Shown here piece by piece: positions 2,445 through 36,636 of a DNA stretch of 64,000 nt; the stretch's first letter is position 1; each line of letters starts with the position of its first letter. The stretch covers positions 38,626,001 through 38,690,000 of the forward strand of contig OZ360232.1 of NCBI GenBank assembly GCA_977017645.1, given 5' to 3'. The notes under the pieces were generated by a model that ran no database searches, was not told the origin of the DNA, and worked only from the letters and a program-made list of their open reading frames with translations. This stretch comes from Torpedo marmorata (taxonomy: Eukaryota). Both the position numbers and the translations under genes were made by a program.

Positions 2445-2588
2445 TGTGCAACGATAAATACGACAATGCTGTGCTGATTTGGGACAACACGGCTTTAAGA
2501 AATGACGCGCACTGCGATTCGCTGCATATCAACGCTCCAGTGCTGACCAATCAGAAGCTAAGATGTGTTTGGTGATCTGGACTGCCCC
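2445..2588 (+). promoter_or_regulatory. V1 promoter module (conserved across all 7 variable exons)
   Basis: TGTGCAACGATAAAT (2445), GCTTTAAG (2492), degenerate ATTCG (2517), CCAATCAGAAGC (2547), TGGTGATCTGGACTGCCC (2570); CCAAT is 280 bp upstream of the ATG. Confidence 0.75.
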
Positions 2589-2826
2589 GATATTACCCAT
2601 CCACCCTCACGTGAGATCAGACTCTGTGAAGAATTGGATACCCAGCAGCTCGGAGAACGATTGCGAGAATCCACTGGCAACAGAACAAAATCAGAAGATT
2701 AGCTTGAAATGATGTGCGATTTAAGAGACGGCAAAAGTGTGGTTATAATGCTTGAAAAATCCAAATAAAGAGACGATCAATGGTGGCGTCACGCACTGAA
2801 AGGCGTTGGAATGGTTTACGCTGGAA

Positions 2827-5280
2827 ATGAGGTATAAAATATATTGGCTGCTAAAATGTCGATTACTATTCTGCGTGTTCTCTTCGTGGAGTATAGTATC
2901 GGGGACGATTCATTATTCGATTCCTGAAGAACTGCAAGTGGGCGCCTTTGTTGGGAATCTAGCAGACGATTTGGGTTTAGATATACAGCAGCTATCGACA
3001 CGATATTCTCGCATTGTGGCCGGGCCCAAGAAATTGTATATGGATATCAATCGGGACAATGGAATTTTATTTGTGAAGGACAAAATTGACAGAGAGCAAC
3101 TGTGTGAGTTGAGTCTCTTTTGTGTGTTATCCTTAGATGTTTTACTCGAAAATCCCCTAACGTTGTATCAGGTTTCAGTGGAGATTCTCGATGTAAACGA
3201 CAATGCTCCTCGTTTCCCGGAGAGTCAAATCCGCCTTGAAGTCTCAGAGCTGGCTGCACCGGGGATGCGTTTCCTTCTCGAGTCTGCGCATGATGCCGAT
3301 GTTGGAACCAACTCCTTGCAAACGTACACGCTCCAGTCGAACGAATATTTTTTTCTGGATGTGCAGATGCGCAGTGGGGATGAAATGTTACCAGTGTTGG
3401 TATTACAGAGACCCTTGGATAGAGAAAAAGAATCCGTCCACAAATTAGTTTTGGTCGCGGAAGACGGCGGGGTCCCTCTAAGGTCAGGCACTGTCCAGCT
3501 TACAATCGTGGTGAAGGATGCAAACGATAACGTGCCTATTTTCCCTCAGTCAGTTTACAGCGTCAGTCTATTGGAATCTGCACCGAAAGGAACGCTTGTT
3601 ATTAAATTAAACGCCACTGACCTGGACGATGGTCCGAATGGAGAGATAATTTACACTTTCAGCAGCCATAATTCTGCCAGAGTACGTAAACATTTTGATG
3701 TTCATTCCAAAACTGGTGAAATTATATTGAAAGAGAAATTGGATTTTGAAGAACGTAGCACAATTGAAATGAACATACAAGCAATGGATATGGGTTTAAA
3801 CCCAATAGCTGTGTATTGCGATATACTGTTGAACGTTATTGATGTCAATGATAATGCACCTGAGGTGACGCTCACGTCCTCGTCGAGTGAAGTTTTAGAA
3901 GATGCCCCTAACGGGACGGTCGTGGTTCTGTTCAGTGCAGAAGACAAGGATTCGGGACGAAATGGACAAGTACAATGTGAAATTTCAAACAAACTGCCCT
4001 TTAGACTCGATTCACCTTTGAAGAATTATTACGGGCTGTATATTGACCAACCTTTGGATCGCGAAAATACCTCCAGATATGATGTTCCCATCACATGCAG
4101 GGATGCAGGCATCCCTCCGCTCACATCCATGGAAACGGTTCGCGTGGAGATTGCAGATGTAAATGACAACGTGCCACGATTTATGCAGCCCAGGTACACG
4201 GTGAACGTCATGGAAAATAATGTTATTGGAGTTTCTATATTACGTTTGAGTGCCATTGATCCAGATTTGGGGCAGAATGCCCGATTGAAATTTTCTATTG
4301 TAGAGTCTGAACTTCAGGACACACAGACATCGTCCTATGTCTCCATTAACTCAGTGAGTGGCGTCATATTTGCTGACAGATCTTTTGACTACGAACAATT
4401 AAAAAAATTCCACATTCAAGTTCTGGTGCAAGATTCTGGAGTCGTGCCACTCGCCAGTAACGTTTCAGTGGATGTTGTTATCCTGGATCAGAATGACAAC
4501 GCCCCAGTAATCCAGAATCCTTTGCCTGAATATGGGTCCACAGCAGTAGACACAATATCCAGGTTTGCAGATCCAGGATACTTGGTTGTCAAATTATCAG
4601 CCACTGATGCTGACAGTGGTCAAAATGCCCTTCTTTCTTTCCACATTTTTCAGGCTACCCATCACGACCTTTTTACTATTTCACCGGAGAGCGGTGAAAT
4701 TTGGACCATCCGTCGAATTATGAGCAAGGATGCCTCCAATCAAAGGCTAGTGGTTGTGGTAAAAGATAATGGAAATCCGCCACTCTCTGCCTCTGTGACC
4801 ATATTATTGACTGTAGTGGGCAGTGATGCGGAAACATTATCCAGTGTCAACACTTTTCCTCAAAATCTTGGGTTCACTCCGGATCTGAGCATGCCCTTGG
4901 TCATAAGCCTAGGAACAATATCTATCATTTTCTTTGTTATCTTACTTATCCTTGCTGTTAAGATTCACAGAAACAGACAAGGATTGGGAGGCCCGCGCCG
5001 TTCCCTTGGTGTTTGTTGTTGCTTTGGAGCAAGAAATTCTCTGAATGGAATTCAAAAAGCGAGTAGAAGCCTTCAGATACCTCCAAATTACGTCGAGGTA
5101 TTCGGGGGCGATCCACTTTCTCAACGTTTTCGTTACGAATCATGTTTAACTTTGCAGTCAACGAACCCGAAAACTTGTGGGCAATCTGCAAACAATCATT
5201 GTGTCCAGAATGAGTTTTTCAGAAAAGACAAAGCTGAAAAGATGCATTTGGAAAATTTCAGCAGCACTATAAATAATGAG
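2827..5280 (+). CDS. Pcdh: Clustered protocadherin variable exon V1 (SP, EC1-6, TM, variable cytoplasmic domain)
   Basis: ORF 2806-5325 (TTG start in track; first in-frame ATG 2827). YSIPEE, DRE, DxNDNxP and AxDxG cadherin motifs, EC1 C-X5-C, TM helix; phase-0 donor GAG|GTGAGG at 5281. Confidence 0.95.
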
Positions 5281-5822
5281 GTGAGGTCTTTCTTAAAAGC
5301 AATTCGATTTTCTCAGTTAGTTTGATTTAAGTTTGTTTGAGAATGGCTGCAAGGGAGTCATATCGTCATGCTCCCCTTTTTCAAGTTTAATTGCCATTTC
5401 TTCTGAACATCCCTGTTACTTTGCTTTTAAATCATGATTTGGGGCTCACCACATGGATAGAGATAAGGATAATTTCCCCTCTTTTTTTCTTTAAAATGAT
5501 CTTCACTAGATATCTGTAAATGTTGAGTCAATTAGCATACTCAAGACAGGGAAGGACATACTGTACTTTTATGTGTACAGCAGAATAAAAGATTATGGGT
5601 ATGTTAAATTGATGAGATGAGATTTGTTGCGGTCATCATGGATACTGGAGCTTGCTCCAGGGGAGGTATGGTGTACTTTCTCTATTATTTTTGTTTGTGT
5701 TTCTCTCTCTGCTTTTGTTTAAATTTTTTACAAAGACATTGCAAATCTTTTTTTTTAAATGTGTTCCCCGGAGATCCACCTGATTTCAAGGATATTCCTA
5801 AAACTCACCTTATTATATTTAA

Positions 5823-6014
5823 CCCTTTGGACTCCGGCCATTTTTAACTTTTCACAATATATACTCCGGATACATGGGTCCGTGGGTAAACTACAGTATG
5901 GACACCAGTATGAACTATCTGGTGGTTGGGTATAAAACCAGTCCCAGAAAATGGGGACACGGAGTATATGCATTTGTTGGTGGACCCTGAAAACCAGACA
6001 CGGGGTCCAAAGGG
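5823..6014. mobile_element. piggyBac-type MITE
   Basis: TIRs CCCTTTGGACTCCG / CGGGGTCCAAAGGG (1 mismatch) flanked on both sides by TTAA (5819-5822, 6015-6018). Confidence 0.8.
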
Positions 6015-7040: not shown

Positions 7041-7401
7041 ATTTAGAACATAGAGATCTACAGCACAGTACAGGCCCTTCGGCCCACCGTGTTGTTCCGA
7101 CCTAACAACCTATTCTATCAACTGGCTAGAATTTCCCTATTGCATAATCCTGCATTGGTTATTAAATGTAATAAAATATGTTCAGAGGTGAAAAACGAGG
7201 AAAAGAAAGGATTCGCATGAGCAATCTAAACACATGTAAATTGTCCAAGAAGAAACTGTTATCAAATATATTCGCTGTCAAACATTCCCCCAGGAAAAAT
7301 CCCAAAATAAAATTGCAATTATAAAAGGAAACGATGATCTGAATTTTAACTGCGTAGTTGCAAATGTTCGTTTTAACTAAATGATTTGATAAGACATTGC
7401 A

Positions 7402-7495
7402 GCTTTAAGAAATGTTCAGCGCCGAGATTGGTTGAACGCGAGGGCCTCCGTTGTCCAATCAGAAGCTGCGATGTGACTGGAGATCTTGACTGCCC
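7402..7495 (+). promoter_or_regulatory. V2 promoter module
   Basis: GCTTTAAG (7402), ATTGG (7427), CCAATCAGAAGC (7455), TGGAGATCTTGACTGCCC (7478). Confidence 0.8.
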
Positions 7496-7751
7496 CCTTC
7501 CATCCCCATCCACCATCACAGACGCTCAGATTCAGTTCAAATCTGAATGGCGGACAGCGAAATGTTCGCTTGGTTTATCCGACTATTGAGGATTTTGAGA
7601 GAAATAAGGTTTCTCCGACCGGCCAATCCCATTTTTCGCGTGCCGTGCAGTGCTTCTTCACCGAGAAAATGATATATCAAGAACTTAATTTTATGGACTG
7701 GACCAACGGCGCCGTATAGCGCGGAAGCAACTGGAATGCTTTGTGCTGGCG

Positions 7752-10220
7752 ATGGGATATTTTCAAATATTTTGGAAGTTATACTGGCAACTGGTGTATT
7801 GTGTTTGTTTCGACTGGGCTGTGGCTTCTGGACCTATTCGTTACTCGATTCCCGAAGAGGGGCAACTCGGTGCCTTTGTTGGAAATATCGCAATCGATCT
7901 GGGACTAAGTGTAAAGGAGCTCTCAGCTCGCAATTTTCAGATCGTGCCTCGCTCCCGGAAACAATATTTTGAGGTAAATTCAGACAATGGAATTGTGTTT
8001 GTTAAAGATAAAATCGACAGGGAGCAGTTGTGTGGAACGAGCGCCTTGTGCACGTTGTCTTTGGAGGCTTTGATTCAAAATCCCTTAACTGTGTATCACA
8101 TTGAAGTGGAGATACTTGATGTAAACGACAATGCTCCCAGCTTCCCGAATCGCCAGTTTCGTCTTAAAATCTCAGAGCTTGCTGCACCGGGGGCGCGCTT
8201 CGCCTTGGAGTGCGCCCACGATCCGGACGTTGGAACCAATTCATTGCAAAGCTACCAGCTGTCTCCTAATGAATACTTCGGATTAAATATTGACTCGCGT
8301 GGTGGGGATGGTAAATTGCCGGTATTGGTGTTGGAACGACAGTTGGACAGAGAGAAGCAAGCGACACACAAGTTGGAACTGCACGCCCAAGACGGGGGGC
8401 TTCCTGCTCAGACTGGTACTGCTGAAATAATAATTGTAGTGCAGGACGAAAACGACCACGCACCCGTCTTCCCAAACTCCGTTTACAGAATTAGTCTCGT
8501 AGAAAACGTGCCGAAAGGAACACTGGTCATCAAATTAAGCGCCACTGATTTAGATGATGGTCCTAATGGAGACATTTTATACTCTTTCAGCAGTCATGCG
8601 TCTGTTAGAGTCCGTGGTTTGTTTTCTGTGGATTCCAAAACAGGGGAAATCAGAGTAAAAGGAAATCTGGACTATGAGGAAGACAGTATATTTGAGATTA
8701 ACATACAGGCCTTGGATCAGGGCACTAATCCAAGTCCCGGATACTGCCACGTTCTGGTTAATATTATCGATGTCAATGATAATGCCCCAGAGCTGAAGGT
8801 AACGTCTTTATTCAGCCCTGTCCGTGAGGATTGTCCGTCCGGGACGGTGGTCGCTCTGATCGGTGTATCGGACAATGACTCTGGGGCAAATGGACAGGTT
8901 GAGTGTGAAATCGCACCCGGATTGCCTTTCAGACTGGATTCATCGTTGAGGAATTACTTCAGATTACTAACTCAGCAGTTGCTGGACAGAGAAAATACCT
9001 CACGCTATGACATTCCTGTTACGTGCCGTGATTTAGGATCTCCTCCTCTGGCGTCCAAGAAAATCATCACCGTGGAAATTTCGGATATAAACGATAATGC
9101 GCCGCACTTTACGCAGCCTTCCTATACGGCTTACGTGATGGAGAACAACATTATTGGGGCGTCAATCGTCACCGTGACCGCTCTTGATCTAGATATGAGC
9201 CAGAATTCTCAATTATTTTACTCAATTCTGGACACCCATGCACTGAGCGAACCTGTGTCCACTTACATCAGGGTCAATTCCAAAGACGGCGTCATATTGG
9301 CTCAGAGAAGCTTCGATTACGAGCAACTCAAAAATTTTCAGATCCAAGTCCGGGCCAGCGACTCTGGAGACCCGCCGAAAATTGGCACCACGTCGGTGGA
9401 TGTAATTATCCTTGACCAAAATGACAACGCCCCCGTGATTGTGTACCCTGCCACAGAGTATGGTTCAACGGCATTGGAAACAATAGCACGGTTCGCAGAG
9501 CCAGGCTATCTGGTCACCAAGCTAACCGCCAATGATGCTGACTCGGGCCAGAACGCACGGCTCTCTTACCAGATCTTCCAGTCGACTGACCCCGGACTTT
9601 TCACCATCTCACCTGATACGGGAGAAATTTGGACGGTCCGCAGCTTCACAACGAAAGATGCGAACAAGCAAAGGCTGATAGTTGTGGTAAATGATAATGG
9701 GACGCCGACACTTTCTGCCACAATGACCCTCATCCTATCGGTGGCAGAAGATGACACAGAAATTCTTTCTCGTGTGAACAATTTATCTGAAGATGCTGGA
9801 TTAACATATGATGTCAGTTTTTACTTAGTTTTATCTTTGGGGATAATCTCATCCACTCTTTTTGTGATTTTAATTGGCCTTGCCGTCACTGTGCACAAAA
9901 ACAGAAACGGTTTTGGCGGGTGTATTTGTTCCCTCGATACATGCTGTTGCTTTCCAGCAAGATCTTCGCTGAACGGTTTCCAAAAGAACAAAAGAAATAT
10001 CCAGATACCTCCGAATTATGTGGAAGTATTTGGGGGCGATCCTCTTTCTCAAAGGTTCCGCTACGGGACCTGCTCCACTTACAGTTCGAGCAAGGAAGAG
10101 TTCCTGTACTCCAAACGGTGCAGATCATCAACAGGCAGGAATGGTGCTGGGGGCGAAATTGCGTGCAATAATGAACAATCACAGTCATCACTTTATAACA
10201 ATTGTAACAACATTAGTCAG
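7752..10220 (+). CDS. Pcdh: Clustered protocadherin variable exon V2
   Basis: ORF 7743-10268, first in-frame ATG 7752; six cadherin repeats, TM, QIPPNYVEVFGGDPLSQ motif; phase-0 donor CAG|GTGAGA at 10221. Confidence 0.95.
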
Positions 10221-11510: not shown

Positions 11511-11559
11511 ATGTTGATTTTATATTTCTCAATAAACTCTCCTGCACTTCATGGAAAAA

Positions 11560-13800: not shown

Positions 13801-15074
13801 AAATTTAAAATTTTTAATTTAAATTAAAAAAAAATAATTTTAAAAATATATTTAAATTCCGTCTACGGTGGCATATCCTAATGTGTAGCCCAGATCATAG
13901 AAAGCGTATCATTGCCTTTGGCGATGGGGCAATATTATAGAAGATATCAGGAATTGAAGTTGAAAGTAAAGATCAATATATTTAAGAGCATTACTTCTGC
14001 AAAAAAAAAAATGTTTCTCCGTTTTCAAGGCTCCGAAGCAGCATAATGACTGAGGGACGATAATCTAACTAAATGTGTAACTGTTGACCAGAGTTTCAAA
14101 TGCTAGGATGATAGTGTTGAATTAATGAAGAAAACCATGCATCATTGGAAGTTATTTGAACTGGCTTGACAAATTATCGAGATGCATAAGTAGGAGTGCT
14201 GATCTGAATTCAGTGCAGAAAGTAGAGCGGTTGAAAATAAGGTAGTGTTGATACAAAGGTGATCGAGTGCGTTGGGCATACGGTTTATTGTGACTATTAG
14301 AGTTAACGACGTTCCTCTATTTCTCTTTAACCCTGGGTGTCAAAGTTAACAATCCGAGTGTTATCACTCCAGTAAAAACCAATCCTGTTTATAATATAAT
14401 GTATAGAGATGAAAGGTTCTGTACATCGAATTGTTATGGTGTCGACAGACTGCCAAAATGAAGGCTGACGTTTCGCTAATGACTTTTCAATAATAGTATA
14501 TTGCTTGGAATTAGCAATAGGTCAAAACGGAAAGCAACAAGGACTAATTTAATGTTTTTTTCTTATGAGCAGTCAAGCTGAACTAACATAATCTGTGCAT
14601 TTCTGGGACCTCCGACATCTATAAACCTCAGCTGCATTGGTGCACCTATTGAAGAGTTGACTAATTCTGTTTAAATTTATACAAACCATTCCCAGACACA
14701 GAAAAGGACTCTGATACTTAGAGCCCAAAGAGTATTCGGTCCTTGACCCCAAATGTTAAAAACAAGCTGAATCGAATGCAGGGAAGCATTGCTTCCTTCC
14801 AAATATTGTTGGAATTGCTCGTTTCTACTGAGATCATAGATGATTATAGACATTTAAAGGGAGTTCAATCTGTTTCTCGAACAACGTCATTAAAAGTTTA
14901 TTGAATTAGCTTACTTACCTGCATTTAGAATTTATAATGCTCACGAACATGCATTTCTGAACAGAGAAGTGTTTTCTGAATAAAGAATGTTGCAGCAGAT
15001 TGTTAAACCTTTGCAGAGAAAGGAAGATGTCCAAAATACTCAAGGAAAAAATAAAGTTTGTACCATATTTTGAT

Positions 15075-15205
15075 TGTGCAACAATAAATGTAAGCAATGT
15101 CGCTTTAACGGGACATTCCAGCTTTAAGATGTGAGCATTGTTCTGATTGGTTGATTATGGCCCACCAATCAGCACCTGTTATGTGACTGGAGATCCTGAC
15201 TGCCC
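15075..15205 (+). promoter_or_regulatory. V3 promoter module
   Basis: TGTGCAACAATAAAT (15075), GCTTTAAG (15121), ATTGG (15146), CCAATCAG (15165), TGGAGATCCTGACTGCCC (15188). Confidence 0.8.
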
Positions 15206-15479
15206 TTTCCATTCCACCATTACATAAGAACACGAAACAATGTGGATTGGATAGCGAGCTTTGTTGGGTTGCAGCCGTTTTTTTGTGTCCATCTATTCTG
15301 GATTTTACTGAGGAACTGAGAGTCCGATCAAACAATCGCGACAATTTATTGAAAGGAAAAATATTCTTGCGCAGTGAAGCCTTTGTTGTGAAGGTATACC
15401 TCTTTTATTTTTTAAATCACAGGAATAAACTGAGAGTCACGGTATCGCACAGAAGCCATTGGAATGTTTAACACCGGCG

Positions 15480-17933
15480 ATGAGATGTTATAATATAGTT
15501 TGTTTCTTAAAATGGGGACTGCTGTATTACAGTTTTATCGTCTGGGAGCGAGTTTTAGCGGAGATTCATTATTCGATTCCTGAAGAATTGCAACGAGGCG
15601 ATTTTATTGGGAATATTGCAGACGATTTAGGTTTAGATGTTAAACAGCTCGCGGCTCGGAATTTTCGTCTTGTATCGGGTCAAAGAAAGCAGTATTTGGA
15701 AGTAAATCTAAACAATGGAGTTTTGTTTGTAAAGGAGAAAATTGACAGGGAGGAATTGTGTGGTGCAAGCCTGACTTGCGTTCTCTCTTTGGAGGCTGTG
15801 CTTGAAAGTCCTCTTAATCTGTACCAAATCGAAGTGGATATTCTGGATATCAACGACAACTCTCCCAGTTTCCCAAAAAGACAGGTCCGCCTGAAAATCT
15901 CCGAGTTTACTGCGCCAGGAGCGCGCTTCCCCCTGGAGAGCGCTCATGATCCGGATATTGGAACCAACTCCGTTCGAACCTATGAGCTGGTGACAAATGA
16001 GTTCTTCACATTAAATGTTGAAGATGGAATTGCAGATTGGAAGCTGCCAATTCTCGTATTGGAACAGCCCTTGGACAGGGAAAAGCATTCGACTCACAGG
16101 CTCCTGCTCCAAGCCAAAGATGGCGGGGACCCGGAAAGATCAGGCACCGCCCAAATTAACGTCGTGGTGGAGGATGCCAACGACAATGCGCCGGTATTCT
16201 CTCGGTCGGTTTACACGATCAGTCTATTAGAAAATGCGACCAAAGGGGCTTTGGTACTGCAGATTAATGCCACCGATTTGGATGACGGCGCCAATGGAGA
16301 GATTACGTACTCCTTCGGCAGCCGTACCTCTGCCAGAGTCCGAGAGATTTTTGGTATGGATCCTCAAACTGGTGAAATAAAACTGAGCGCGAATTTAGAT
16401 TATGAAGAAAATAGTGCGTTTGATATTATGGTACAAGCAATGGACAAGGGCTCCAACGCCATCCCAGTATACAGTCGCATTTTATTGACTATTTTAGATG
16501 TAAATGATAACGCGCCTGAAATAACTCTAACATCTTTATCAAGCCCAGTTCCAGAGGATTCTCTGCCTGGAACTGTGGTGGCTCTGGTCAGTGTTTCTGA
16601 TAGAGACTCTGGCAACAATGGACAATTTCAATGCCACATAGAAAATAAAGTGCCTTTCACGCTGGATTCGTCGTCCAAGAATCACCTGAGATTGCTCACC
16701 CACGATGCCCTGGACCGAGAATTCGTCTCCATGCACAACGTAACTATCATCTGCAGGGATGAAGGAACTCCGGCTCTCAGCACGATCAGAACGATCCCGA
16801 TTGAGATTTCGGACCGAAACGATAACTCGCCACAATTTTCGCAACCTTTGTTCACGGTGCATGTGATGGAGAACAATCATATTGGTGCCTTGATATCCTC
16901 AGTGACAGCATTTGATCCAGACGTGGGTGAAAATGCTCGGCTATCGTACGATATTCTGCAGAATTGGGTGCAGGGTCAGTCAGTAAACAATTACGTCTAT
17001 ATTAATTCAGAGACTGGCAATATATATTCCTATAAAACATTTGATTATGAGCAGTTAAAATCCTTTCAGATCCAAGTTGAAGCGCGTGACCATGGAGTCC
17101 CATCGCTTTCCAGCAATGTTTCCGTAGACGTTATCATTCTTGACCAGAATGATAACGCTCCAGTGATCGTTCATCCATTAATCGAGTACGGGTCAACTAC
17201 CAAAGAGGTTGTATCCCGATCGGCGGAAGCAGGCTATCCAGTAACAAAAGTTACAGCAACGGATGCCGATTCGGGACAAAATGCTCGCTTATGCTATCGT
17301 ATCCTCCATGCCACTGACTCGGGACTTTTTACTATTTCTGAGGACACGGGGGAAATATGGACAACTCGTGCTGTTAGCAATACCGACGCAACAAAGCAAA
17401 AATTGGTTATCCGAGTGAATGACAATGGGACACCAGCACTTTCTGCTTCGATTACTATAATCTTGTCATTAGTAGACGGTGAAGAAGCGTTATTGTCTGA
17501 CAGAAGCAGTTTGCTGCAAAGGTCCAATGTTGCTTCTGTTACCAGCCTTTACTTAGTCGTTTCATTAGGAATGCTATCGTTCATTTTTCTGGTGATTTTG
17601 ATTATTCTAGCTGTTAAAGTTCACAAAAGCAGAAATGTGTTCGAGGACCACAGCTGCGTCCTGGGCGCTTGTTTTGCCTTCGGTCCACGACAATCGCTGA
17701 ATGGAGTTCAGAAAGCCAGCCGCAATCTTCACATTGCTCCCAACTACGTTGAAGTATTTGGTGGTGATCCGCTTTCACAGAGTTACCGCTACGAAACCTG
17801 TTCCATGGCACGTTCAGCAAAGGGAGACTTGGTGTTCCCCAACACCTGCGGTTCCTGGAAGGGGACCAATGAAGTTATTGCACAGAGAGGAGCTGTATTA
17901 TTCAAAACTTGTGAGAATTCTGTTCTTTCTGAG
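15480..17933 (+). CDS. Pcdh: Clustered protocadherin variable exon V3
   Basis: ORF 15459-17972, first in-frame ATG 15480; full EC1-6/TM architecture; phase-0 donor GAG|GTGAGA at 17934. Confidence 0.95.
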
Positions 17934-22163: not shown

Positions 22164-22311
22164 TGTGCAACCTTAAATATACTTAATTGCGCCAAGTTTT
22201 TGGGAAATGCAGCCCAGCTTTAAGAAATGCTTAGTGCAGTGATTGGTTGAAGTTAAGTCAGCCGTTTTCACCAATCAGAAGCTGTTATGTGACTGGAGAT
22301 CCTTACTGCCC
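22164..22311 (+). promoter_or_regulatory. V4 promoter module
   Basis: TGTGCAACCTTAAAT (22164), GCTTTAAG (22217), ATTGG (22242), CCAATCAGAAGC (22271), TGGAGATCCTTACTGCCC (22294). Confidence 0.8.
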
Positions 22312-22573
22312 TACCCTCCCCTTCCGCCATTGTATTGATACCGTGTAACATGGAGAGAGCGGCTTGCCCTTGCAATCGGTTCTTTACATTCATTTATTGG
22401 CGAAATTCGAAGAAATCAGAAGGTTTGTCAGAAATCGTTACGCAGGATTTTTAAACAGTACGTTTGTTTTTTTCTGCTATTAGTCAAAATGGAATTAGAT
22501 TTTACTCGTCTGAGCGGGAATTATTGAACGACGCCGCGGTGTTCTCAATCATTTGAAATGCTTTGTGCTGGAA

Positions 22574-25018
22574 ATGGAATTTTATAAATTTTATTGGCTA
22601 TTGAAATGGCAACTTTTATACTGTATTATCCCCTACTGGCAAATAATTTCTGGACAGATACGTTATTCGATTCCTGAAGAATTGAACGTCGGTGCTTTTA
22701 TTGGGAACATCGCAGAGGACCTGAAGTTGGATGTAAAAGAACTCTCAGCTCGCGGCTTTCAAATTGTGCCGGGACCGAGTAAGCGGTATATAGACGTAAA
22801 TGTAAACAACGGGGTTTTGTTCGTGAGGGAAAAAATGGATAGAGAACAGTTGTGTGGACCGAACCTCGCTTGCACGTTGTCTTTGGAAGCAGTGATTGAA
22901 AACCCTCTTAATGTGTACCATTTTCAAGTGGACATTTTGGATGTGAATGATAATGCCCCGAGTTTTCCAGAGAGAGAATTCAGTTTGGAAATATCAGAGG
23001 TGGCTTCTCCTGGAACGAGCTTCGCTCTGGAGTGCGCACACGACCCTGACGTTGGAACCAACTCAGTGCAAAACTACCAACTAGCAGACAACCTCTATTT
23101 CTCCCTTGATGTTGAGACCCGGGGTGGCGACGAAAAGTTGCCAGTTTTAGTCCTGGAAAGACCGCTGGACAGAGAAAAGGAAAATACTCACAGGCTGGTT
23201 TTGTTTGCCAAGGACGGAGGGGTTCCTGAAAGATCAGGTACTGCTGAAATAGTAATCGGTATAGAGGATGCCAATGACAATGCGCCTGTTTTCCCCCAGC
23301 CGGTGTACAGGGTGAGTTTGCGGGAGAATGCGCCGAAAGGAACATTAGTGATCAAACTGGATGCCTCCGATTTGGATGCTGGTCTCAACGGGCAGATTGT
23401 GTATTCCTTCAGTAGTCATACTTCGAATAGAGTTCGAGAACTGTTCGGGCTAGATTCAAATAGTGGCGAAATCAGAATTAAGAACCGTTTGGATTACGAG
23501 GAAAACGATGTTTTTGAGATTAACGTTCAAGCAAAAGATAAGGGTCCTAACGCAACCCCCGTATACTGTCGCGTGCGGGTTAACATTGTTGATGTGAATG
23601 ACAACGCTCCTGTAGTAACACTGACATCTTTATTCAGTCCTGTCAGTGAAGATTCCCTTCCCGGCACCGTGGTGGCTCTGATTAGTTCAACAGACAAGGA
23701 TTCGGCTGAGAACGGGCGCGTGGATTGTGAACTCCAAAACGACCTCCCCTTTAAACTAGAATCATCTTTAAATAACTATTACAGACTGGTTACCCGGGAG
23801 GTACTGGACCGTGAACATGCATCAGCCTACAACGTAACTGTGGTGTGCAGCGATGCGGGGATCCTTCCACTGGTATCCAACAAAACAATCCTGGTGGAGG
23901 TCTCGGATATAAACGATCACCCACCTCATTTTACACAGTCTGTATATACGGCTTACGTGATGGAGAATAACGCCATTGGTGCGTCCATATTCTCTGTGAC
24001 TGCTTCAGATCGAGATTTACATAGAAACGCCCAACTGTCCTACGTTATTTTGGATACTCAGATTCAGGGGATGTCAGTGTCCACGTACGTCTCAATAAAC
24101 CCGCACAGTGGTGTCATATTTTCGCAGAGAAGTTTCGATTACGAGCATCTCAAAAACTTTGAGGTCCAAGTTCAGGCACGAGACTCTGGATCCCCGCCAC
24201 TTTCCGGCAATGCTTCAGTGAATGTGGTCATCTTGGATCAGAATGACAATGCGCCGGTGATCGTGCACCCATTACCTGAATTCGGCACCACTGCTTTGGA
24301 GACGATATCCCGGCTGGCTGAACCAGGCTACCTGGTTGCCAAGGTTTCTGCCACAGACAGTGACACTGGCCGGAATGGTCGCCTTGCTTTCCAGATCCTC
24401 CAAGCGACTGATGTCGGCCTCTTTACCATTTCACCGGATACAGGGGAAATCTGGACAATTCGCAGTATTAGGAAGAAAGACGCCGCTAAACAAAGGTTGG
24501 TCATCTGTGTTAAAGATGACGGATCACCACCTCTTACAGCCACAGTGACAATCATCTTATCTTTAGTTGGAAATGACAGACAAATGCTCTCAGATGCGAA
24601 TGGTTCCTCTGATGACTCCGTGTTTGCTTCTGACGCCAGATTTTACCTTGTAATAATTCTAGGGCTAACATCATCCGTGTTCCTAATCATTTTGATTATG
24701 CTGGCCGTTAAGGTCCATAGAACTTCTTCTCTTGGCGCATGTGGCTGCTTAACAGCAAGGCCCTCACTCCGTGGATTGCACAGAGGCAATAGGAGCCTTC
24801 AGATACCACCAAACTATGTTGAGGTGTTTGGGGGTGACCCACTTTCTCAGAGTTTCCGCTACGATTCATGCTCAACTTCACATTCTGTAAAGAGAGATGT
24901 CAGGCTGCCCAACAGTGGATCTACACGTAAGAATTATACTCCTAGTGGCATTTTGGGAAATGGCGATACCTTACAAACTCCCAATTCTACGCAGTACAGG
25001 AACATTGTAAATAATGAG
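22574..25018 (+). CDS. Pcdh: Clustered protocadherin variable exon V4
   Basis: ORF 22553-25087, first in-frame ATG 22574; full architecture; phase-0 donor GAG|GTGAGG at 25019. Confidence 0.95.
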
Positions 25019-25705: not shown

Positions 25706-25990
25706 ATATAGCGTGTTTACTTGGTAGAAAACTCATTCGGTGGTTAAAGTTTTATATATTGGCATGAAATGAATGGGATTAAGCATTAGAATTTACCAAC
25801 ATAGATGTTCGTGGTCTGTTTTGCCAGAGACACGAGCCATGTAGGGCAAGGATTTTATGTTTCCATAATTGCATTACAAATGGTTCTGGTAATTGATTTG
25901 AATGTTGTAGCTCTTATAAAATCCACAAGAATGTAGCAGAGTAAACAAAATCTCCAAACCAATGCCGGTAATGGTGTAAGATATTTACAT

Positions 25991-26125
25991 TGTACACTAA
26001 TAAATCTGACTTTGACCTGGAGATTAACAGAGACATTCCAGCTTTAAGAAGCATTGTGCGCCATGATTGGTTGGACGCAGTTCACCAATGAGAAGCTGAA
26101 ATGTGTCTGGTGATCTTGACTGCCC
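25991..26125 (+). promoter_or_regulatory. V5 promoter module
   Basis: TGTACACTAATAAAT (25991), GCTTTAAG (26041), ATTGG (26066), CCAATGAGAAGC (26085), TGGTGATCTTGACTGCCC (26108). Confidence 0.8.
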
Positions 26126-26399
26126 CCGTCCCTTCCAGTCGCCATTACGTACGATCAGATACAGTGTAAAACTCCGCATAGCCGAGCGTAGCGATGGAAA
26201 GGGCTTTGCGATCGAAAGCATTGGATATTACAATTGAAATGAAAAGGTTCGAACAAAATCTCAATATGCTTTGAAAAATACAGGTATTTTACGCAACATT
26301 GCCTCGTTTATCTTTAAAGCTGGCATTTATAGAATCTTATTCCTGAAAATCGGTGAATGGCGTATCGCGCTGAAGTAATTGCAATGCTTTGTACAGGAG

Positions 26400-28841
26400 A
26401 TGGGATATTCTAAAATATATTGGCTGATAAAATGGTCACTTTTTTGCTCTGTGTTATCACCCTGGATTCTGGTTTCGGGACAGATTCGCTATTCAATTCC
26501 TGAAGAGCTGCAACTGGGTGCCTTTGTTGGAAATGTCGCAGAGGATTTGGATTTAGACGTAAAAGTCCTGGCGGCCCGCAGTTTTCGGATTGTTTCTAGT
26601 TCCCGGAAGCAGTATCTTGATATCAATTTGGACGATGGAAATCTTTATGTGAAAGGAAAAATTGACAGGGAGCAGCTCTGCGGGTCGAACCTCGCATGCA
26701 CGCTGTCCTTAGAGGCAGTGATCGAAAATCCGTTGACCGTGTACCATTTACAAGTAGAAATTCTGGATGTAAACGACAACGCTCCCAGTTTTCCCCAAAC
26801 CCAATTCCGCTTGGAAATCTCAGAGGTTGTGGCACAAGGAGCACGCTTTGCCCTTGAGTCTGCTCATGATCCAGATGTTGGAACCAACTCTGTGCAGACA
26901 TACCAGCTGGACGATAACGAGTATTTCACCATAGACATTCAGTCACGCCGTGGAGATGGCAAGCTGCCGGTGTTAGTTTTGCAAAAGCATCTAGACAGGG
27001 AAAAGCAAACGATCCACAACTTAGTCCTGATTGCCAAGGACGGAGGCATCCCTGAAAAATCGGGGACGGCTCAGATCGTGGTTATCGTGCAGGATGCGAA
27101 TGACAACACGCCAGTGTTCCAACAATCGGAATATAGGACGAGACTGTTGGAAAATACACCAAAAGGAACTCTGGTAATCAAACTAAACGCTACTGATTTA
27201 GACGATGGGCCTAATGGAGAGATTGTTTACTCTTTCAGTAGCCATGCCTCTCCCAGAGTTCGGGAAATGTTTCGTGTGGATTCCAGAACTGGGGAAATCA
27301 GGGTTAAAGGGAATTTGGACCACGAGGAAAACGACGTTTTTGAGATTAATATACAAGCGACTGACAGGGGGTCTTTTGCAACGCCTGCCTATTGCGAGGT
27401 GTTGGTGGATGTTATTGACATAAACGACAACGCCCCTGAGGTGAGATTGACTTCTTCATTCAGTCCTGTCAGTGAGGACGCCTTGCACGGGACAGTGGTT
27501 GCTCTGTTCAACGTGGCTGACCAAGACTCGTCAGATAATGGGCAGGTACATTGCCACATTTTAAGTGGCTCTCCCTTCAAACTGGATTCCTCTTTGGCGA
27601 ACTACTACAGACTACTAACAGAGAAACCGCTGGATCGCGAAAATATCTCAAAGTACGACGTTACCGTCGTCTGTAGCGATGAAGGAATTCCCCCTCTCAC
27701 ATCCAAGAAATCCATCCGAGTGGATATTACCGATGTAAATGATAATGCACCACGTTTTATTCATCATTTATACACAGCTTATGTAACGGAGAACAATGCT
27801 ATTGGGTCTTCTATCTTCTCAGTGACAGCCTTTGATCCGGATGCAATGCAGAACTCACAATTGTCTTACTCTGTCTTAGAAACATGGGATCAGGATTTGT
27901 CAGTATCCGCTTACGTGCATATTAATTCGGAAACTGGTGTCGTATATGCTCGGAAAACATTTGACTACGAACAATTAAAAACCTTTCAGATATGTATAGG
28001 AGCGCAGGACTCTGGGACCGTCCCACTGCGCAGCAATGTTACAGTAGATTTTATTATCCTCGATCAAAATGACAATGCCCCAGTCATCGTCCATCCGCTG
28101 CCAGAATATGGATTGACAGCGTTAGAAACCGTGTCGAGGTTGGCGGAGCCTGGTTACCTCGTTGCCAAAGTATCTGCGACGGACGCAGACTCTGGCCAGA
28201 ATGCTCGCCTCACTTATGAGATTTTCCAAGCTACAGACACGGGACTTTTTACCATTTCATCTGACTCGGGAGAAATATGGACTATCCGTGGCATCCTGGA
28301 CAAAGATCTTAGGAGACAAAGTTTGGTCGTTGTTGTGAAAGACAACGGAGAGCCTGCACTTTCATGCACAATCACCATTATTATCTCGGTGGAACAAAGT
28401 AAATCAGAGTTGTTATCGGAAGTGGACAGTTCATCCGATGAAGCAGGTTTGGCTCCGGACACGAGCTTTTACTTGGTCATAGCCTTGGGGTTAACTTCTG
28501 TAATCTTTCTGGTTATTTTGATTGTTCTTGCCATTAAAGTTCACAAAAATACGCAAGACTTTGATGGTAACACCTGCTGCTTTGTGGCAAGAAGTCGAAA
28601 GGCGAGTAGGAGCCTTCAAATACCTCCAAATTATGTTCAAGTATTTGGGGGCGACCCACTTTCTCAAAGTTTCCGCTACGATACTTATTCGGCTTCAAAC
28701 ACACTCAGGGGAGACTTCATGTTCCGCAACACGTGTGGCTCGGCTGAAGGAAAGAATAACGCCAATATCCACCCCAGTAGGAAAGGCGAGATTCCACCAG
28801 TAACAAACGCTTCAAGCTGTAGGAACACTGTGGATAGTGAG
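26400..28841 (+). CDS. Pcdh: Clustered protocadherin variable exon V5
   Basis: ORF 26379-28910, first in-frame ATG 26400; full architecture; phase-0 donor GAG|GTGAGA at 28842. Confidence 0.95.
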
Positions 28842-29147: not shown

Positions 29148-29235
29148 GAAATGGGATTGTATAAAATATATTGTTTTTTGAAATGGCAACTGTTATGTTT
29201 AGTGTTCCCCTGGAATCTGATTTCTGGACGGATAC
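29148..29235 (+). pseudogene. Orphan copy of the V7 start/signal-peptide sequence
   Basis: 82/88 nt identical to 36897-36984 (MGLYKIYCFLKWQLLCLVFPWNLISGRI vs MGLCKIYCFLKWQLFCLVLPWNLISGQI); no promoter module and no cadherin repeats. Confidence 0.85.
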
Positions 29236-29239
29236 CATA

Positions 29240-29430: not shown

Positions 29431-29649
29431 TTTCTTTCAAAAAATTCCAGGAGTAAGTTTTGTATAGTGTCCTTCACGGGTGTTGTTGAATGAGTAGACG
29501 GTGTTGTGGCAGCTATATATGAAAATAACAATGAAAGTCATTGGGAGCGTCGTCGTTCTGACAGCACAGTTTTGTTTTTCCCCTTTAAAAATGTTTGGCA
29601 GAGGAATGAATTTAAAATCTTAAAAGAAAGCAGTGGAAATAATTTTAAG

Positions 29650-29790
29650 TGTACAACTATAAATGCTGCTTTTACGCAGAGGTTTTCTGTGTCGTTCTAG
29701 CTTTAAGTAGTCCTTAGAACAGTGATTGGTTGAACACGAGCATGCACACGTTCACCAATCAGAAGCCAGAAGTTGGCTGGAGATCTCTCC
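29650..29790 (+). promoter_or_regulatory. V6 promoter module
   Basis: TGTACAACTATAAAT (29650), GCTTTAAG (29700), ATTGG (29725), CCAATCAGAAGC (29755), TGGAGATC (29778); the GACTGCCC end is lost. Confidence 0.75.
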
Positions 29791-30053
29791 CTATCGACCA
29801 TCACGTAAGATCGGCTACAGTGTAAAAATGGACAGCACGCTGCATCATGTTATATTAGGATCTGAGCACGAATATTTGGATCATTTTAGAAATAAGAACA
29901 TCTGCTTTAATTAATATCCGGATTTTCAAATTGTACAGGTTTTTTTTTTACAAATGAAAGCTCTGTTAAAATGTTACTGAAAGGCGTTTATTAAGACGAT
30001 TTCGCGAACGGAGCAGGGCTGCACTGAAGCATTTGAAATGTTTTTCGCTGGAA

Positions 30054-32528
30054 ATGGGACATTGGAGAATATTTTTCTTGAGAAAATGGCATCTGCTGTA
30101 CTATCTATTCTCCTTGTGGGATATAATTTCGGGACAAATTCGTTATTCGATTCCGGAAGAACTGCAAATTGGCGCCTTTGTTGGTAATATCGCGGACGAT
30201 TTAGGTTTAGCCGTGAGAGAACTCTCAGCTAGGAATTTTCGTGTCATGCCCGGTCTCGGGGGGAAATATTTTGACGTAAATTTAGACAATGGAATCATGT
30301 TTGTGAAGGAAAATATTGACAGAGAGCGGCTTTGTGGGTCGAGCCTTACTTGCCTTTTATCTATGGAAGCTGTGGTTGAAAATCCACTAAATGTCTATCG
30401 GGTCGAAGTGGAGATTTTGGATGTAAATGACAACACTCCCAGTTTCCCAGATAATCAATTCGGTTTAGAAATCTATGAAGTGGCGGCCCCGGGAGCCCGC
30501 TTCCCTCTTGAGTGTGCCCACGATCCGGACGTGGGAACCAACTCCCTACAAAGCTATCACCTGGTTGAGAATCAATACTTCGCGCTCGACATTGAGACCC
30601 GCAGTGGGGACGAGAAGCTGCCGGTGTTAACGCTGGAAAGGGCACTGGATAGAGAGAAGGAACCGACGCACAAGTTGCAACTAATTGCAGAGGACGGAGG
30701 GATCCCTCCAAGGTTCAGCACTGCCGAAATATTAATCGCAGTGCAGGACGCCAACGACAACTCTCCTGTCTTCCCCCAGTCGGTGTATAGGGTCAGCCTG
30801 AATGAAAATGTTCCCAAAGGAACACTTGTCATCAAGCTCAACGCCACTGACTTGGATGATGGCCCTAATGGCCAAATCGAGTATTCATTTACCAGCCACA
30901 CCTCGGCAACAGTACGTGAACTCTTCGATCTGAATTCCGAAACAGGGGAAATCAAAGTGAAGGGGAACTTGGACTATGAGGTAAATAGTGCCATTGAGAT
31001 CAATGTTCAGGCAATAGATAAAGGCTCTGCTCCATCACCTGTTTACTGTCGTGTTCATGTGGATATTACCGATGTGAATGATAACTCTCCTGAGGTGACC
31101 GTGACTTCTTTGTTCAGTCCAATTGTCGAAAGCTCTCCGCCAGGGACTGTGATAGCGTTGGTTAGTACCACAGACATAGACTCCGGGAAAAACGGACAGG
31201 TGGATTGTCAAATCCCAAATCACCTCCCCTTTAAACTGAATTCGCCATTAACGAACTATTACAAATTGTTAACCGTGAACCAATTAGATCGCGAAAATAT
31301 CCCCAGCTATGACGTCACCATACAATGCCGTGATTCTGGATCGACTCCTCTAACTTCCAAGAAAACATTGCATGTCGAGGTCTCAGATGTAAATGACAAC
31401 GCGCCTCGTTTTAGCCAATCTTCATACACCGCCTATGTGATGGAGAACAACGTCATCGGAGCCTCTATCATAGCAGTGACGGCTACAGATCCTGATTTGA
31501 ACCAGAATGCCAAAATATCATATTCCATTCCTAGAAACCAGTTCAAGCACGAGCCGGCAGCGAACTACGTGCATGTTAATGCCGAAGCTGGAACCGTTTT
31601 TTCTCAAAGAAGTTTCGACTACGAGGAACTCAAACGTTTCCAGTTCCAGGTGCAAGCGCGGGACAGCGGAGACCCATCGCTCAGCAGCAATGTTTCGGTG
31701 GACATTGTCATCCTGGATCAGAACGACAATGCCCCAGTGATTGTGCACCCTCTACCTGAACATGGATCGACCGTCATGGAAACAATGTCTCGCTCTGCAG
31801 AACCAGGTTATCTGGTTACCAAGGTGTCTGCAATCGATGCTGACTCTGGCCAGAATGCTCGCCTCTCTTACCAGATCGTTCAGGCTACTGACCCAGGACT
31901 TTTCACCATTTCGCCGGACACGGGAGAAGTGTGGACCATCCGTGACATGGTGGAGAAGGATGCGACAAGGCAAAAGTTAAAAATTGTGGTCAAAGACAAC
32001 GGAGCGCCGCCGCTTTCAGCTTCCATGACTATCAGTGTGTCGGTGGTGGATGGGGATGCTCAGCTACTTTCTGGTGTCACGGATTTGACCGATGACGCGG
32101 CTTTCAAGCCCGTGTTGAGTTTTTACTTGGTGATATCTTTGGGCGTAATTTCAACCATTTTCCTGCTGATTTTAATCGTCCTCGCCGTGAAGGTGCATAA
32201 AAGCAGGAATAGGTTTGCTGTTTACAGTTCATACATGGGCGTCTGCTGCTGTTATAAATCAAGAAGTTCTCTCAATGGGATTCAGAAAGCGAGCAGAAAC
32301 ATTCAGATACCTCCGAATTATGTGGAGGTCTTCGGAGGCGACCCTCTTTCTCAAAGTTTTCGCTACGGGACGAATTCAACTTTAGCTTCGAACAAGAGAG
32401 ACTCTGCCTTTCCTAATTCATACAGTTCATCTGCAATGTCATCCAAAGGCGGGTGTGCGCCTCATGAGAAACATATATATCTACACTCGCAACCTCCTGC
32501 AAATTATAGCAATGCTGTGTCTAATGAG
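30054..32528 (+). CDS. Pcdh: Clustered protocadherin variable exon V6
   Basis: ORF 30033-32573, first in-frame ATG 30054; full architecture; phase-0 donor GAG|GTGAGG at 32529. Confidence 0.95.
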
Positions 32529-36010: not shown

Positions 36011-36109
36011 CATATGACCTTAAAGATTAAATTCAATGTGGTCATGACATTCAGCATCAAATGTTATCCCAACTGATCCTTTTTGGACATTTCTAGCGTG
36101 CTCTTAGCT

Positions 36110-36469
36110 CAGTGGTTTTCAAACTGCCCCCCTAAACTCACATTCCACCTTAAGCAATCCCTATGCCATAAGTGCTCTGTGATTAGTAAGGGATTGCTTA
36201 AGGAGGTATGTGAGTGGAAAGAAAAAGTTTGAAAACCACTGTTTTAATCGTACCTTATTGACTCGTTATGTGCACGGGTTTATAACTCCAAAGGAAATGG
36301 GCCAATGACAATTTTTCTCAAGCAAAATATTTCAGTAACCATTGGTTCTCAACCTTCCCTTCCCACTCAAATACCACCTTAAGCAATCCCTTACTAATCA
36401 CAGAGCACTTATGGCATAGGGATTTCTTTAGGTGGAATGTGAGTTTAGGGGGCAGATTGAAAACCACTG
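36110..36469. mobile_element. hAT-type composite MITE
   Basis: TIRs CAGTGGTTTTCAAACTGCCCCC / GGGGGCAGATTGAAAACCACTG; colinear with the 6670 and 43544 copies. Confidence 0.9.
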
Positions 36470-36496
36470 CTCTACGAATCAGATTCAAATTTAGAT

Positions 36497-36636
36497 TGCG
36501 CAACCATAAATATTGGTTTCCAAGTCCGATTCAGTGTGCTAGCTTTAAGAAATGAGGTCTCCTGTGATTGGCTGAAGGCGAATGTAACGCCAATGGCCAA
36601 TCAGAAGCTGAATGGTGAATGGAGATCCTGACGGCT
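36497..36636 (+). promoter_or_regulatory. V7 promoter module
   Basis: TGCGCAACCATAAAT (36497), GCTTTAAG (36542), ATTGG (36567), CCAATCAGAAGC (36597), TGGAGATCCTGACGGC (36620). Confidence 0.8.

What the first reader, a model, noticed from the sequence alone, without database searches (positions are those of the whole stretch)
2445..36636. Rigidly spaced, helically phased paired-CCAAT promoter module in front of all seven variable exons
Seen: 280-315 bp upstream of each ATG the order is TGYRCAacnATAAAT (clear in 6/7) ... GCTTTAAG - ATTGG - CCAAT(C/G)AG - TGG(A/T)GATCyTGACTGCCC, then a C-rich CCRCCATYAC-like tract. Start-to-start distances: GCTTTAAG to ATTGG is exactly 25 in 7/7 (V1 has ATTCG). 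CCAAT to TGGWGATC is exactly 23 in 7/7. ATTGG to CCAAT is 30, 28, 19, 29, 19, 30, 30, i.e. two classes about one helical turn apart. Sequence between the motifs is diverged. Established: mammalian clustered Pcdh promoter choice relies on a CGCT-box CSE bound by CTCF; CCAAT is the NF-Y site; TTGCGCAA (V7) is a C/EBP palindrome. Inference: this subcluster may use a different, stereospecific NF-Y-centred complex with an unidentified TGGAGATCYTGACTGCCC-binding factor, so possibly a non-CTCF promoter-choice mechanism. Needs checking against the published elephant shark cluster (delta/epsilon/mu/nu subclusters) before being called new.
Basis: partly seen in the sequence, partly recalled or inferred. 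Interest (0 to 1): 0.8.

Follow-up and report, generated by a model that had tools for sequence, protein, structure and literature searches.

The report
CTCF-less double-CCAAT ray protocadherin promoters
Seven neighbouring neuron-identity (protocadherin) genes of a ray each start from the same ancient promoter, built on two back-to-back CCAAT boxes, and show no recognisable site for CTCF, the protein mammals use to choose among such genes, so cartilaginous fish may switch them on differently.

Summary
The window is the 3' end of a ray's clustered protocadherin nu subcluster: seven variable exons plus constant exons 1-2. All seven promoters carry GCTTTAAG-25-ATTGG-(19/28-30)-CCAAT-23-TGGWGATC as stated. 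Five paralogues predate the shark-ray split and synonymous sites are near saturation (38% identity), so this is not recent duplication. The CCAAT flanks fit NF-Y. A recalled CTCF matrix finds no site in promoters, at the exonic-site position, or above background in 64 kb, but no positive control was available.

Corrections: the CCAAT-TGGWGATC 'spacer' is itself 70% conserved and may be one long footprint. Helical phasing rests on one or two deletions, and 19 and 26-30 bp are known double-CCAAT distances. V1 has lost one box. Promoters without the CTCF element (CSE) are already known in mammals (alpha-c2, beta1, gamma-c4/c5) and Xenopus, and a CGCT element was reported in elephant shark (paper not held).

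Best reading: an ancient NF-Y-type proximal promoter without promoter-bound CTCF, more likely giving steady, C-type-like expression than a new choice mechanism. New variant of a known kind; interest 0.5.

The parts
2438..2606 (+). V1 promoter module: quasi-palindrome 2438-2459, GCTTTAAG 2492, degenerate reverse box ATTCG 2517, CCAAT 2547, TGGTGATC 2570, C-rich tract to about 2606
2827..5280 (+). Variable exon V1 (nu-type protocadherin; splice donor GT at 5281)
7344..7516 (+). V2 promoter module: GCTTTAAG 7402, ATTGG 7427, CCAAT 7455, TGGAGATC 7478; upstream palindrome partly degenerate
7752..10220 (+). Variable exon V2
15068..15220 (+). V3 promoter module (19-bp class): GCTTTAAG 15121, ATTGG 15146, CCAAT 15165, TGGAGATC 15188
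15480..17933 (+). Variable exon V3
22157..22330 (+). V4 promoter module: GCTTTAAG 22217, ATTGG 22242, CCAAT 22271, TGGAGATC 22294
22574..25018 (+). Variable exon V4 (cadherin repeats and cytoplasmic stretch by Pfam)
25984..26145 (+). V5 promoter module (19-bp class): GCTTTAAG 26041, ATTGG 26066, CCAAT 26085, TGGTGATC 26108
26400..28841 (+). Variable exon V5
29643..29801 (+). V6 promoter module: GCTTTAAG 29700, ATTGG 29725, CCAAT 29755, TGGAGATC 29778; the GACTGCCC part is deleted (about 15 bp)
30054..32528 (+). Variable exon V6
36490..36658 (+). V7 promoter module: palindrome with TTGCGCAA, GCTTTAAG 36542, ATTGG 36567, CCAAT 36597 (an extra CCAAT 7 bp before it), TGGAGATC 36620
36900..39209 (+). 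Variable exon V7, with an earlier splice donor (GT at 39210) matching the junction in its Pristis orthologue's model
22524..22573 (+). Second conserved block in the 50 bp before the ATG (V4 copy given; present in all seven), with an invariant out-of-frame ATG at -16
   Evidence: 64% identity; 12 of 42 ungapped columns invariant
51165..51223 (+). Constant exon 1 (59 bp)
   Evidence: tblastn with homologue tails including C. milii nu15; borders
58347..58564 (+). Constant exon 2 (nu-type repeat-rich tail)

Best explanation
The module is the proximal promoter of the 3'-most nu variable exons, inherited from one ancestral promoter and kept by purifying selection since before sharks and rays split. 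Two back-to-back CCAAT boxes bind NF-Y trimers. Each box has a fixed-distance partner element on its own 3' side: GCTTTAAG for the reverse box, and the AAGCT..TGGWGATC block for the forward box. The distance between the two boxes is loose (28-30 bp) down to the steric floor of 19 bp. With a bZIP-like palindrome upstream and a C-rich tract downstream, this opens a CpG-rich promoter and drives transcription without promoter-bound CTCF. Most likely these exons are expressed in the steady or cell-type-determined way of the mammalian CTCF-less exons (alpha-c2, gamma-c4, gamma-c5) rather than by CTCF-loop choice. SHOWN: motifs, spacing, age, constraint, NF-Y-like flanks, and no hit to a recalled CTCF matrix. 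INFERRED: NF-Y binding, partner identity, start site, absence of CTCF in vivo, and mode of expression.
For: Motif columns are invariant while four-fold sites are 38% identical with 0 of 72 columns invariant. Five of seven exons sit in their own clades with shark orthologues at 100% support. Zero indels in two spacers beside 14 off-mode lengths in three neighbouring spacers has probability at most 8e-5 under any single indel rate tried. The 13 intact pentamers rank within the top 25 of 196 CCAAT pentamers on flank score alone. 19 bp is the published minimum and 26-30 bp a common promoter class for double CCAAT (PMC4889920 passages). CpG observed/expected is 0.85-1.31 in the 300 bp before each ATG versus 0.27 in the intron. 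CTCF hits are at background. V2-V6 keep one-to-one orthologues and lie next to the constant exons, like C-type exons.
Against: The CTCF and NF-Y matrices were recalled, and no known CSE could be scored as a positive control. Tan 2010 states that a CGCT element was identified in the elephant shark cluster; I could not see which subclusters carry it. A CGCT/AGCG tetramer lies at -230..-195 in 6/7 promoters, on either strand. V1 has lost the reverse pentamer yet keeps both distances. The flank test counts seven descendants of two ancestral sites. The tree does not place nu with C-type exons; the affinity is only a similarity ranking. Upstream ATGs between -230 and -20 are not clearly depleted (25 versus 34 expected, P = 0.06), so the start site is not pinned. 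Dolfini 2016 says the 19-bp class is found only in LTR repeats in human cells, and the text has no occurrence of 'orientation'.
Confidence: 0.55

Rival explanations
1. One long footprint: the 31-bp block from CCAAT to TGGWGATC (and perhaps GCTTTAAG to ATTGG) is read by a single multi-finger or other sequence-specific protein, so the fixed 23 and 25 bp are internal to binding sites. NF-Y is incidental or binds only one box.
For: The 18 bp between CCAAT and TGGWGATC are 70% identical and 18 of 31 columns are invariant. In mammalian alpha promoters the SSE-CSE pair tolerated no 5-, 10- or 15-bp insertion and was bound by the CTCF zinc-finger fragment alone (PMC3333863 passages). V1 keeps the 25-bp distance without the pentamer.
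Against: Both boxes have NF-Y-type flanks in opposite orientations. The inner part of the 17-bp spacer is at neutral identity (35%). The shortest pair distance equals the published two-NF-Y minimum.
Confidence: 0.17
2. Cryptic CTCF control: CTCF binds a non-canonical site here (for example the reverse GGGGGCAG-like half-site in the TGACTGCCC / C-rich tract, or the AGCG block near -210), so promoter choice works as in mammals and the CCAAT pair is only the basal activator.
For: A CGCT element is reported for the elephant shark cluster. Xenopus and zebrafish alpha CSEs lack the CGCT box, so CSEs can diverge. The best aligned CTCF column falls on the reverse strand of the TGACTGCCC tract.
Against: That column's median is -6.3 bits and only V2 reaches 5.7 of a possible 28.6. 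V6 has deleted it. No promoter's best hit beats shuffles (3 to 40 of 40 shuffles score as high). The AGCG block has 0 of 25 invariant columns. The exonic-site position scores -14.6 to 5.2.
Confidence: 0.13
3. CTCF-independent stochastic choice: identical NF-Y modules compete for a shared enhancer, or the reverse half drives antisense transcription, giving mosaic expression without CTCF anchors.
For: Seven near-identical, CTCF-less promoters lie in one tandem array spliced to common constant exons. The two boxes face opposite ways, each with its own fixed partner.
Against: There are no expression data. In mammals the CTCF-less exons are the constitutive or cell-type-specific ones. Shared promoter motifs do not by themselves imply choice.
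Confidence: 0.1
4. The likeness comes from gene conversion among promoters, or from an old repeat (LTR) element, not from selection on binding sites.
For: V3 and V5 share both the 19-bp class and the most similar upstream flank (72%, highest of 21 pairs). An 88-bp, 93% copy of the V7 start lies at 29148-29235, so ectopic copying happens here. The 19-bp double CCAAT is LTR-associated in human data.
Against: Conservation is patchy: invariant motifs alternate with stretches at neutral identity, unlike a conversion tract. A profile of the module finds only the seven promoter copies in the window. Conversion is reported to be low in elephant shark.
Confidence: 0.05

Closest known systems
Mammalian clustered protocadherin promoter CSE (CGCT box, CTCF-bound) with SSE and exonic CBS
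   Same: Paralogue-shared element a few hundred bases before each variable-exon ATG, at nearly constant distance; rigid internal spacing; same variable/constant gene layout.
   Different: No positionally conserved forward CGCT; no hit to a recalled CTCF matrix in promoters or at the exonic-site codons; the conserved core is a CCAAT pair at about -335 to -280.
CSE-less protocadherin promoters: mammalian alpha-c2, beta1, gamma-c4, gamma-c5; Xenopus tropicalis gamma2 15-36 with their own 13-bp motif (PMC4978886)
   Same: A run of 3'-distal variable exons lacking the CSE and sharing another clade-specific upstream motif.
   Different: The Xenopus motif is 13 bp at about -200 and shown only in a figure I could not see, so identity with this module is untested. 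Here the module is about 200 bp with several parts. Nu exons do not group with C-type exons in my tree.
NF-Y double-CCAAT promoter platform (Dolfini et al. 2016, PMC4889920)
   Same: Two CCAAT boxes 19 or 26-30 bp apart, none closer than 19; partner sites at preferred distances; C/EBP and Sp-type neighbours.
   Different: The boxes are back to back. The partners GCTTTAAG and TGGWGATC match none of the partners named in the passages read. The 19-bp class is here in promoters rather than LTRs.
Elephant shark protocadherin cluster, nu subcluster (Yu et al. 2008; seen only through citing papers)
   Same: The seven exons form a 99% clade with C. milii nu8, nu9, nu15 and nu17, and the constant exons match the nu15 tail.
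   Different: A CGCT element was reported for that cluster; whether it covers nu, or is part of this module, could not be checked.

Membership tests
Chondrichthyan protocadherin nu subcluster | Variable exons group with C. milii nu genes | tested here: met
   99% SH-aLRT clade of V1-V7 with nu8/9/15/17 in a quick tree of 44 EC1-3 rows
Chondrichthyan protocadherin nu subcluster | Downstream constant exons of nu type | tested here: met
   Tails of nu15 and batoid homologues match 51165-51221 and 58345-58563; exon 3 was not found in the window
CSE/CTCF-type protocadherin promoter | Forward CGCT box at a constant position about 200 bp before the ATG | tested here: not met
   Forward CGCT is scattered (-479 to -8) and absent in V4 and V7; a recalled CSE-type pattern gave 4 matches versus 9.1 expected, none in a promoter
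CSE/CTCF-type protocadherin promoter | Forward CTCF motif in each promoter | tested here: not met
   No hit with p < 1e-4 in 7 of 7 promoters; best hits no better than shuffles. Matrix recalled; no known CSE scored as control
CSE/CTCF-type protocadherin promoter | Exonic CTCF site about 700 bp after the CSE (alpha type) | tested here: not met
   Scores -14.6 to 5.2 at the EC2 codons that I recall carrying it. The alpha-type peptide FPLEGAS can encode up to 22.7 bits, the window peptides 7.6-15.6
CSE/CTCF-type protocadherin promoter | CTCF/cohesin occupancy and looping to a downstream reverse-site enhancer | not testable with these tools
   No chromatin data; the window ends before the last constant exon
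NF-Y double-CCAAT promoter | Two intact CCAAT pentamers within 75 bp | tested here: met
   6 of 7 promoters; V1 has ATTCG at the first box
NF-Y double-CCAAT promoter | NF-Y-type flanks | tested here: met
   13 of 13 intact pentamers in the top 25 of 196 on flank score (recalled matrix; copies not independent)
NF-Y double-CCAAT promoter | Pair distance at least 19 bp and in a known class | tested here: met
   19 (twice) and 28-30 (five times) versus published 19 minimum and 26-30 class
NF-Y double-CCAAT promoter | NF-Y binding, and position relative to the transcription start | not testable with these tools
   No binding or start-site data
C-type clustered protocadherins | Phylogenetic grouping with alpha-c / gamma-c exons | tested here: inconclusive
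   Length-matched PDB constructs rank gamma-C4, gamma-C3 and alpha-C2 first among clustered types, but the tree backbone is unresolved and nu stays with other chondrichthyan rows
C-type clustered protocadherins | Constitutive or cell-type-specific, biallelic expression | not testable with these tools
   No expression data
REST/NRSE-regulated protocadherin promoters | Canonical NRSE in the intergenic region | tested here: not met
   0 matches with up to 3 mismatches in the window, 1.4 expected by chance; non-canonical spacings not tested

The most novel reading that the evidence does not exclude
The whole nu array of cartilaginous fish diversifies neuron identity by stochastic promoter choice with no CTCF anchors. 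Identical back-to-back NF-Y modules, each half locked to an unidentified partner factor, compete for activation, possibly with upstream antisense transcription from the reverse half. CTCF-based choice in bony-vertebrate alpha/beta/gamma clusters would then be one of two solutions, with the alpha exonic site made possible by a glycine codon that these nu exons lack.
Probability: 0.12. Interest if true: 0.85.

Novelty: new variant of a known kind. Interest (0 to 1): 0.5.

Why it matters
CTCF/cohesin looping is the accepted basis of protocadherin promoter choice, but it has been worked out in mammals. A tandem array whose seven promoters share an ancient NF-Y-type module, with no recognisable CTCF site in 64 kb, gives a concrete test of whether that mechanism is general. 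It also offers a sequence handle on how CTCF-less exons such as gamma-c4 and alpha-c2 are driven, and two invariant motifs whose factors are unidentified. The test is cheap: orthologous promoters exist in many sequenced sharks, and a shark CTCF paper is in the library (PMC7471279, seen as a search listing only).

Tried and rejected
Recent duplication: rejected. ATAAAT as a TATA box with a start near GCTTTAAG: rejected, because the distance varies from 33 to 41 bp. Strict helical phasing: not established. V3 and V5 as sisters: not in either tree, but not rejected (AU p = 0.06). Structured RNA: no Rfam match. Tandem-repeat origin of the module: none of 8 arrays overlaps a promoter. Further module copies: none with E below 0.4. 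NRSE: none. C-type membership by tree: inconclusive. Assigning factors to GCTTTAAG and TGGWGATC: no motif library was on hand, and likenesses from recall (C/EBP or PAR-bZIP for the palindrome, YY1 or Sp/KLF for the C-rich tract, TEAD for GGAATG) are leads only. A positive control for the CTCF scan: the supplement with CSE sequences was in an unreadable format, the CTCF structure paper was not held, and the preprint text had no CGCT strings. Papers checked with nothing relevant: PMC3160964, PMC1852091, PMC10839448 (passages) and PMC5674152 (wrong paper). Orthologous promoter DNA from other sharks and rays stayed unchecked, because no open collection holds vertebrate genomes.
Full report
Locus. 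Seven long plus-strand frames start at 2827, 7752, 15480, 22574, 26400, 30054 and 36900. The two scanned against Pfam (V4, V7) carry cadherin repeats and the protocadherin cytoplasmic stretch. A search with V4 scored 8000 candidates and listed the best 120, mostly shark and ray protocadherins, including elephant shark nu8, nu9, nu13, nu15 and nu17. The best identities are to batoids (V3 90% to a Narcine protein; V5-V7 83-86% to Pristis proteins), so the window is from a ray. Tails of homologues locate constant exons 1 and 2 at 51165-51223 and 58347-58564. In a quick tree of 44 EC1-3 rows, V1-V7 form a 99% clade with four C. milii nu genes. These are the last seven variable exons of the nu subcluster; how many lie upstream of the window is unknown.

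Observation. All stated distances are correct: 25 in 7/7, 23 in 7/7, and 30, 28, 19, 29, 19, 30, 30 between the boxes. The spaced patterns give 7 matches each, all in promoters, with 0 of 100 shuffles reaching 7. A profile of the module finds the seven training copies and nothing else below E = 0.4. The upstream element is longer than described: a 23-bp quasi-palindrome (TTTA-nn-TTGYRCAA-nnn-TAAAT type) with 11 of 23 columns invariant. A further conserved block fills the 50 bp before each ATG (64% identity, 12 of 42 columns invariant). The claim that spacers are diverged needs a correction: the inner 17-bp spacer is at 35% identity, but the 18 bp between CCAAT and TGGWGATC are 70% identical.

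Age and constraint. The paralogues are 55-64% identical in protein. Four-fold sites are 38% identical on average, and 0 of 72 shared four-fold columns are invariant, against 15 of 35 and 18 of 31 invariant columns in the two halves of the module. Aligned shuffled sequence gives 39% (20 shuffles). In a quick tree of the seven exons with 59 named chondrichthyan proteins that I chose from the 120 hits, V2, V3, V4, V5 and V6 each form a 100% clade with shark orthologues; V7 pairs only with a Pristis protein, and V1 falls in an expanded shark-plus-ray clade. Five of seven paralogues therefore predate the shark-ray split (roughly 250-300 million years, recalled). Recent duplication is excluded, and the patchy pattern argues against gene conversion as the main cause.

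Spacing. I modelled five inter-motif spacers on a star tree with one indel rate. The observed pattern (no change in two spacers, 14 off-mode lengths in the other three) had probability at most 8e-5 over nine rates and two length laws (anchors chosen after seeing the data). So the 25- and 23-bp distances are constrained. Phasing between the boxes is weaker. The seven lengths spread over about 70 degrees of helix. The 19-bp class is V3 and V5, which are not sisters in either tree but cannot be excluded as such (AU p = 0.06) and share the most similar upstream flank (72%). A deletion of 3 bp or more has about a 10% chance of being 9-11 bp, so the evidence is about 0.1 for one event and 0.01 for two. 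Dolfini et al. 2016 (PMC4889920, passages) report no double CCAAT closer than 19 bp, matching the steric minimum for two NF-Y trimers, and a 26-30 bp class in promoters. A floor at 19 explains the short class as well as phasing does. The same paper says the 19-bp class is found only in LTR repeats.

NF-Y. Scored on flanks only with a recalled NF-YA matrix, the 13 intact pentamers rank 1-25 among 196 CCAAT pentamers in the window. They descend from two ancestral sites, so the nominal p of 3e-9 overstates independence. V1's first box reads ATTCG, yet V1 keeps both distances, which counts against an obligatory two-trimer complex. CpG observed/expected is 0.85-1.31 just before each ATG against 0.27 in the intron, as expected of promoters.

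CTCF. With a recalled CTCF matrix (maximum 28.6 bits), no promoter has a hit at p < 1e-4. No promoter's best hit beats its shuffles, and the best aligned position has a median of -6.3 bits. The whole window is at background: 0, 1, 6 and 11 hits at 15, 13, 10 and 8 bits against 0.5, 1.25, 4.25 and 12 expected. Forward CGCT is not positionally conserved. At the EC2 codons where I recall the alpha exonic site lies (+444 to +447, consistent with about 700 bp after a CSE; PMC7811963 passages), scores are -14.6 to 5.2. Alpha-type proteins among the hits read FPLEGAS there, which can encode up to 22.7 bits, while the window peptides cap at 7.6-15.6. Against this reading: I had no known CSE as a positive control; Tan et al. 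2010 (PMC2926608, passages) state that a CGCT element was identified in the elephant shark cluster by Yu et al. 2008, which is not held; and a CGCT or AGCG tetramer lies at -230..-195 in 6 of 7 promoters on one strand or the other, although that block has 0 of 25 invariant columns.

Mechanism. Most likely (0.55) this is an NF-Y-type proximal promoter in which each box is locked to a partner on its 3' side, the two halves are loosely coupled, and CTCF is not bound. In mammals the exons without a CTCF site are alpha-c2, beta1, gamma-c4 and gamma-c5, and C-type exons are constitutive or cell-type-specific rather than stochastic. These nu exons share the 3' position and the stable orthology of C-type exons and rank closest to gamma-C4, gamma-C3 and alpha-C2 among length-matched clustered PDB constructs, but my tree does not group them. 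Steady expression is therefore an inference by analogy. The main rival (0.17) is a single long footprint: in mammalian alpha promoters the rigid SSE-CSE spacing went with binding by CTCF's zinc fingers alone (PMC3333863, passages), so rigid spacing does not prove a multi-protein complex. Cryptic CTCF control (0.13), CTCF-free stochastic choice (0.10) and conversion or repeat origin (0.05) follow.

Comparison and novelty. Paralogue-shared protocadherin promoter elements are known, as are CSE-less ones: Xenopus gamma2 15-36 lack the CSE and carry another 13-bp motif, shown only in a figure I could not see (PMC4978886, sections 16 and 18 and passages). Double-CCAAT platforms with fixed partner distances are also known (passages). 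Ten full-text searches of the open library turned up no paper describing CCAAT or NF-Y modules in clustered protocadherin promoters or any promoter analysis of nu. I judged most from listings only, and subscription papers, Yu 2008 and its supplement, the Golan-Mashiach supplement and figures were not visible and may bear on this. The finding is a new variant of a known kind. Interest 0.5: real, ancient and directly testable against the CTCF model, but its parts have precedents and its most striking claim rests on a motif scan without a control and on no expression data.

Noticed in passing
window, 16 bases before each ATG (2811, 7736, 15464, 22558, 26384, 30038, 36884): An invariant out-of-frame ATG at exactly -16 in 7/7, with G at -3 in all seven; its frame overlaps the true start in 6/7 (4-78 codons). 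It may damp translation or be part of a DNA motif (GGAATG-like).
   Followed up: partly
window 29148-29235: An 88-bp, 93%-identical copy of the start of V7's coding sequence lies between V5 and V6, without a promoter module, about 110 bp before a repeat fragment also seen near 63100-63900.
   Followed up: partly
window 39207-39217: V7 uses an earlier splice donor than V1-V6, giving a shorter variable tail; the junction matches its Pristis orthologue's model.
   Followed up: yes
window 2438-2459 and the six equivalent sites: The upstream element is a 23-bp quasi-palindrome with A/T arms around the TGYRCAA core, 11 of 23 columns invariant; its distance to GCTTTAAG varies by 8 bp.
   Followed up: partly
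window 19013-20377, 33680-35938, 46399-48048: Reverse-transcriptase (Pfam RVT_1) frames, probably LINE-type copies, in intergenic and intron DNA; the copies near 33.7-36.0 kb and 46.0-48.3 kb are 74% identical.
   Followed up: partly
about 110-130 bases before the ATG of V5, V6, V7: A shared TACAGGT(A/T)TTT stretch resembling a splice donor in the presumed 5' leader; no matching acceptor was sought.
   Followed up: no
window 58372-58493: Constant exon 2 contains 12-bp tandem repeats encoding the QREV/PRDV-type repeat tail.
   Followed up: no
window 32820-33212 and 43861-44110: A 393-base assembly gap between V6 and V7, and a 113-bp tandem duplication at 95% identity.
   Followed up: no
V3, V6, V7 exons at +424 to +444, minus strand: Weak reverse-strand CTCF-like scores (5.9-13 bits) cluster over the APGARFPLE codons; the window-wide count is at background, so probably a codon effect.
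   Followed up: partly
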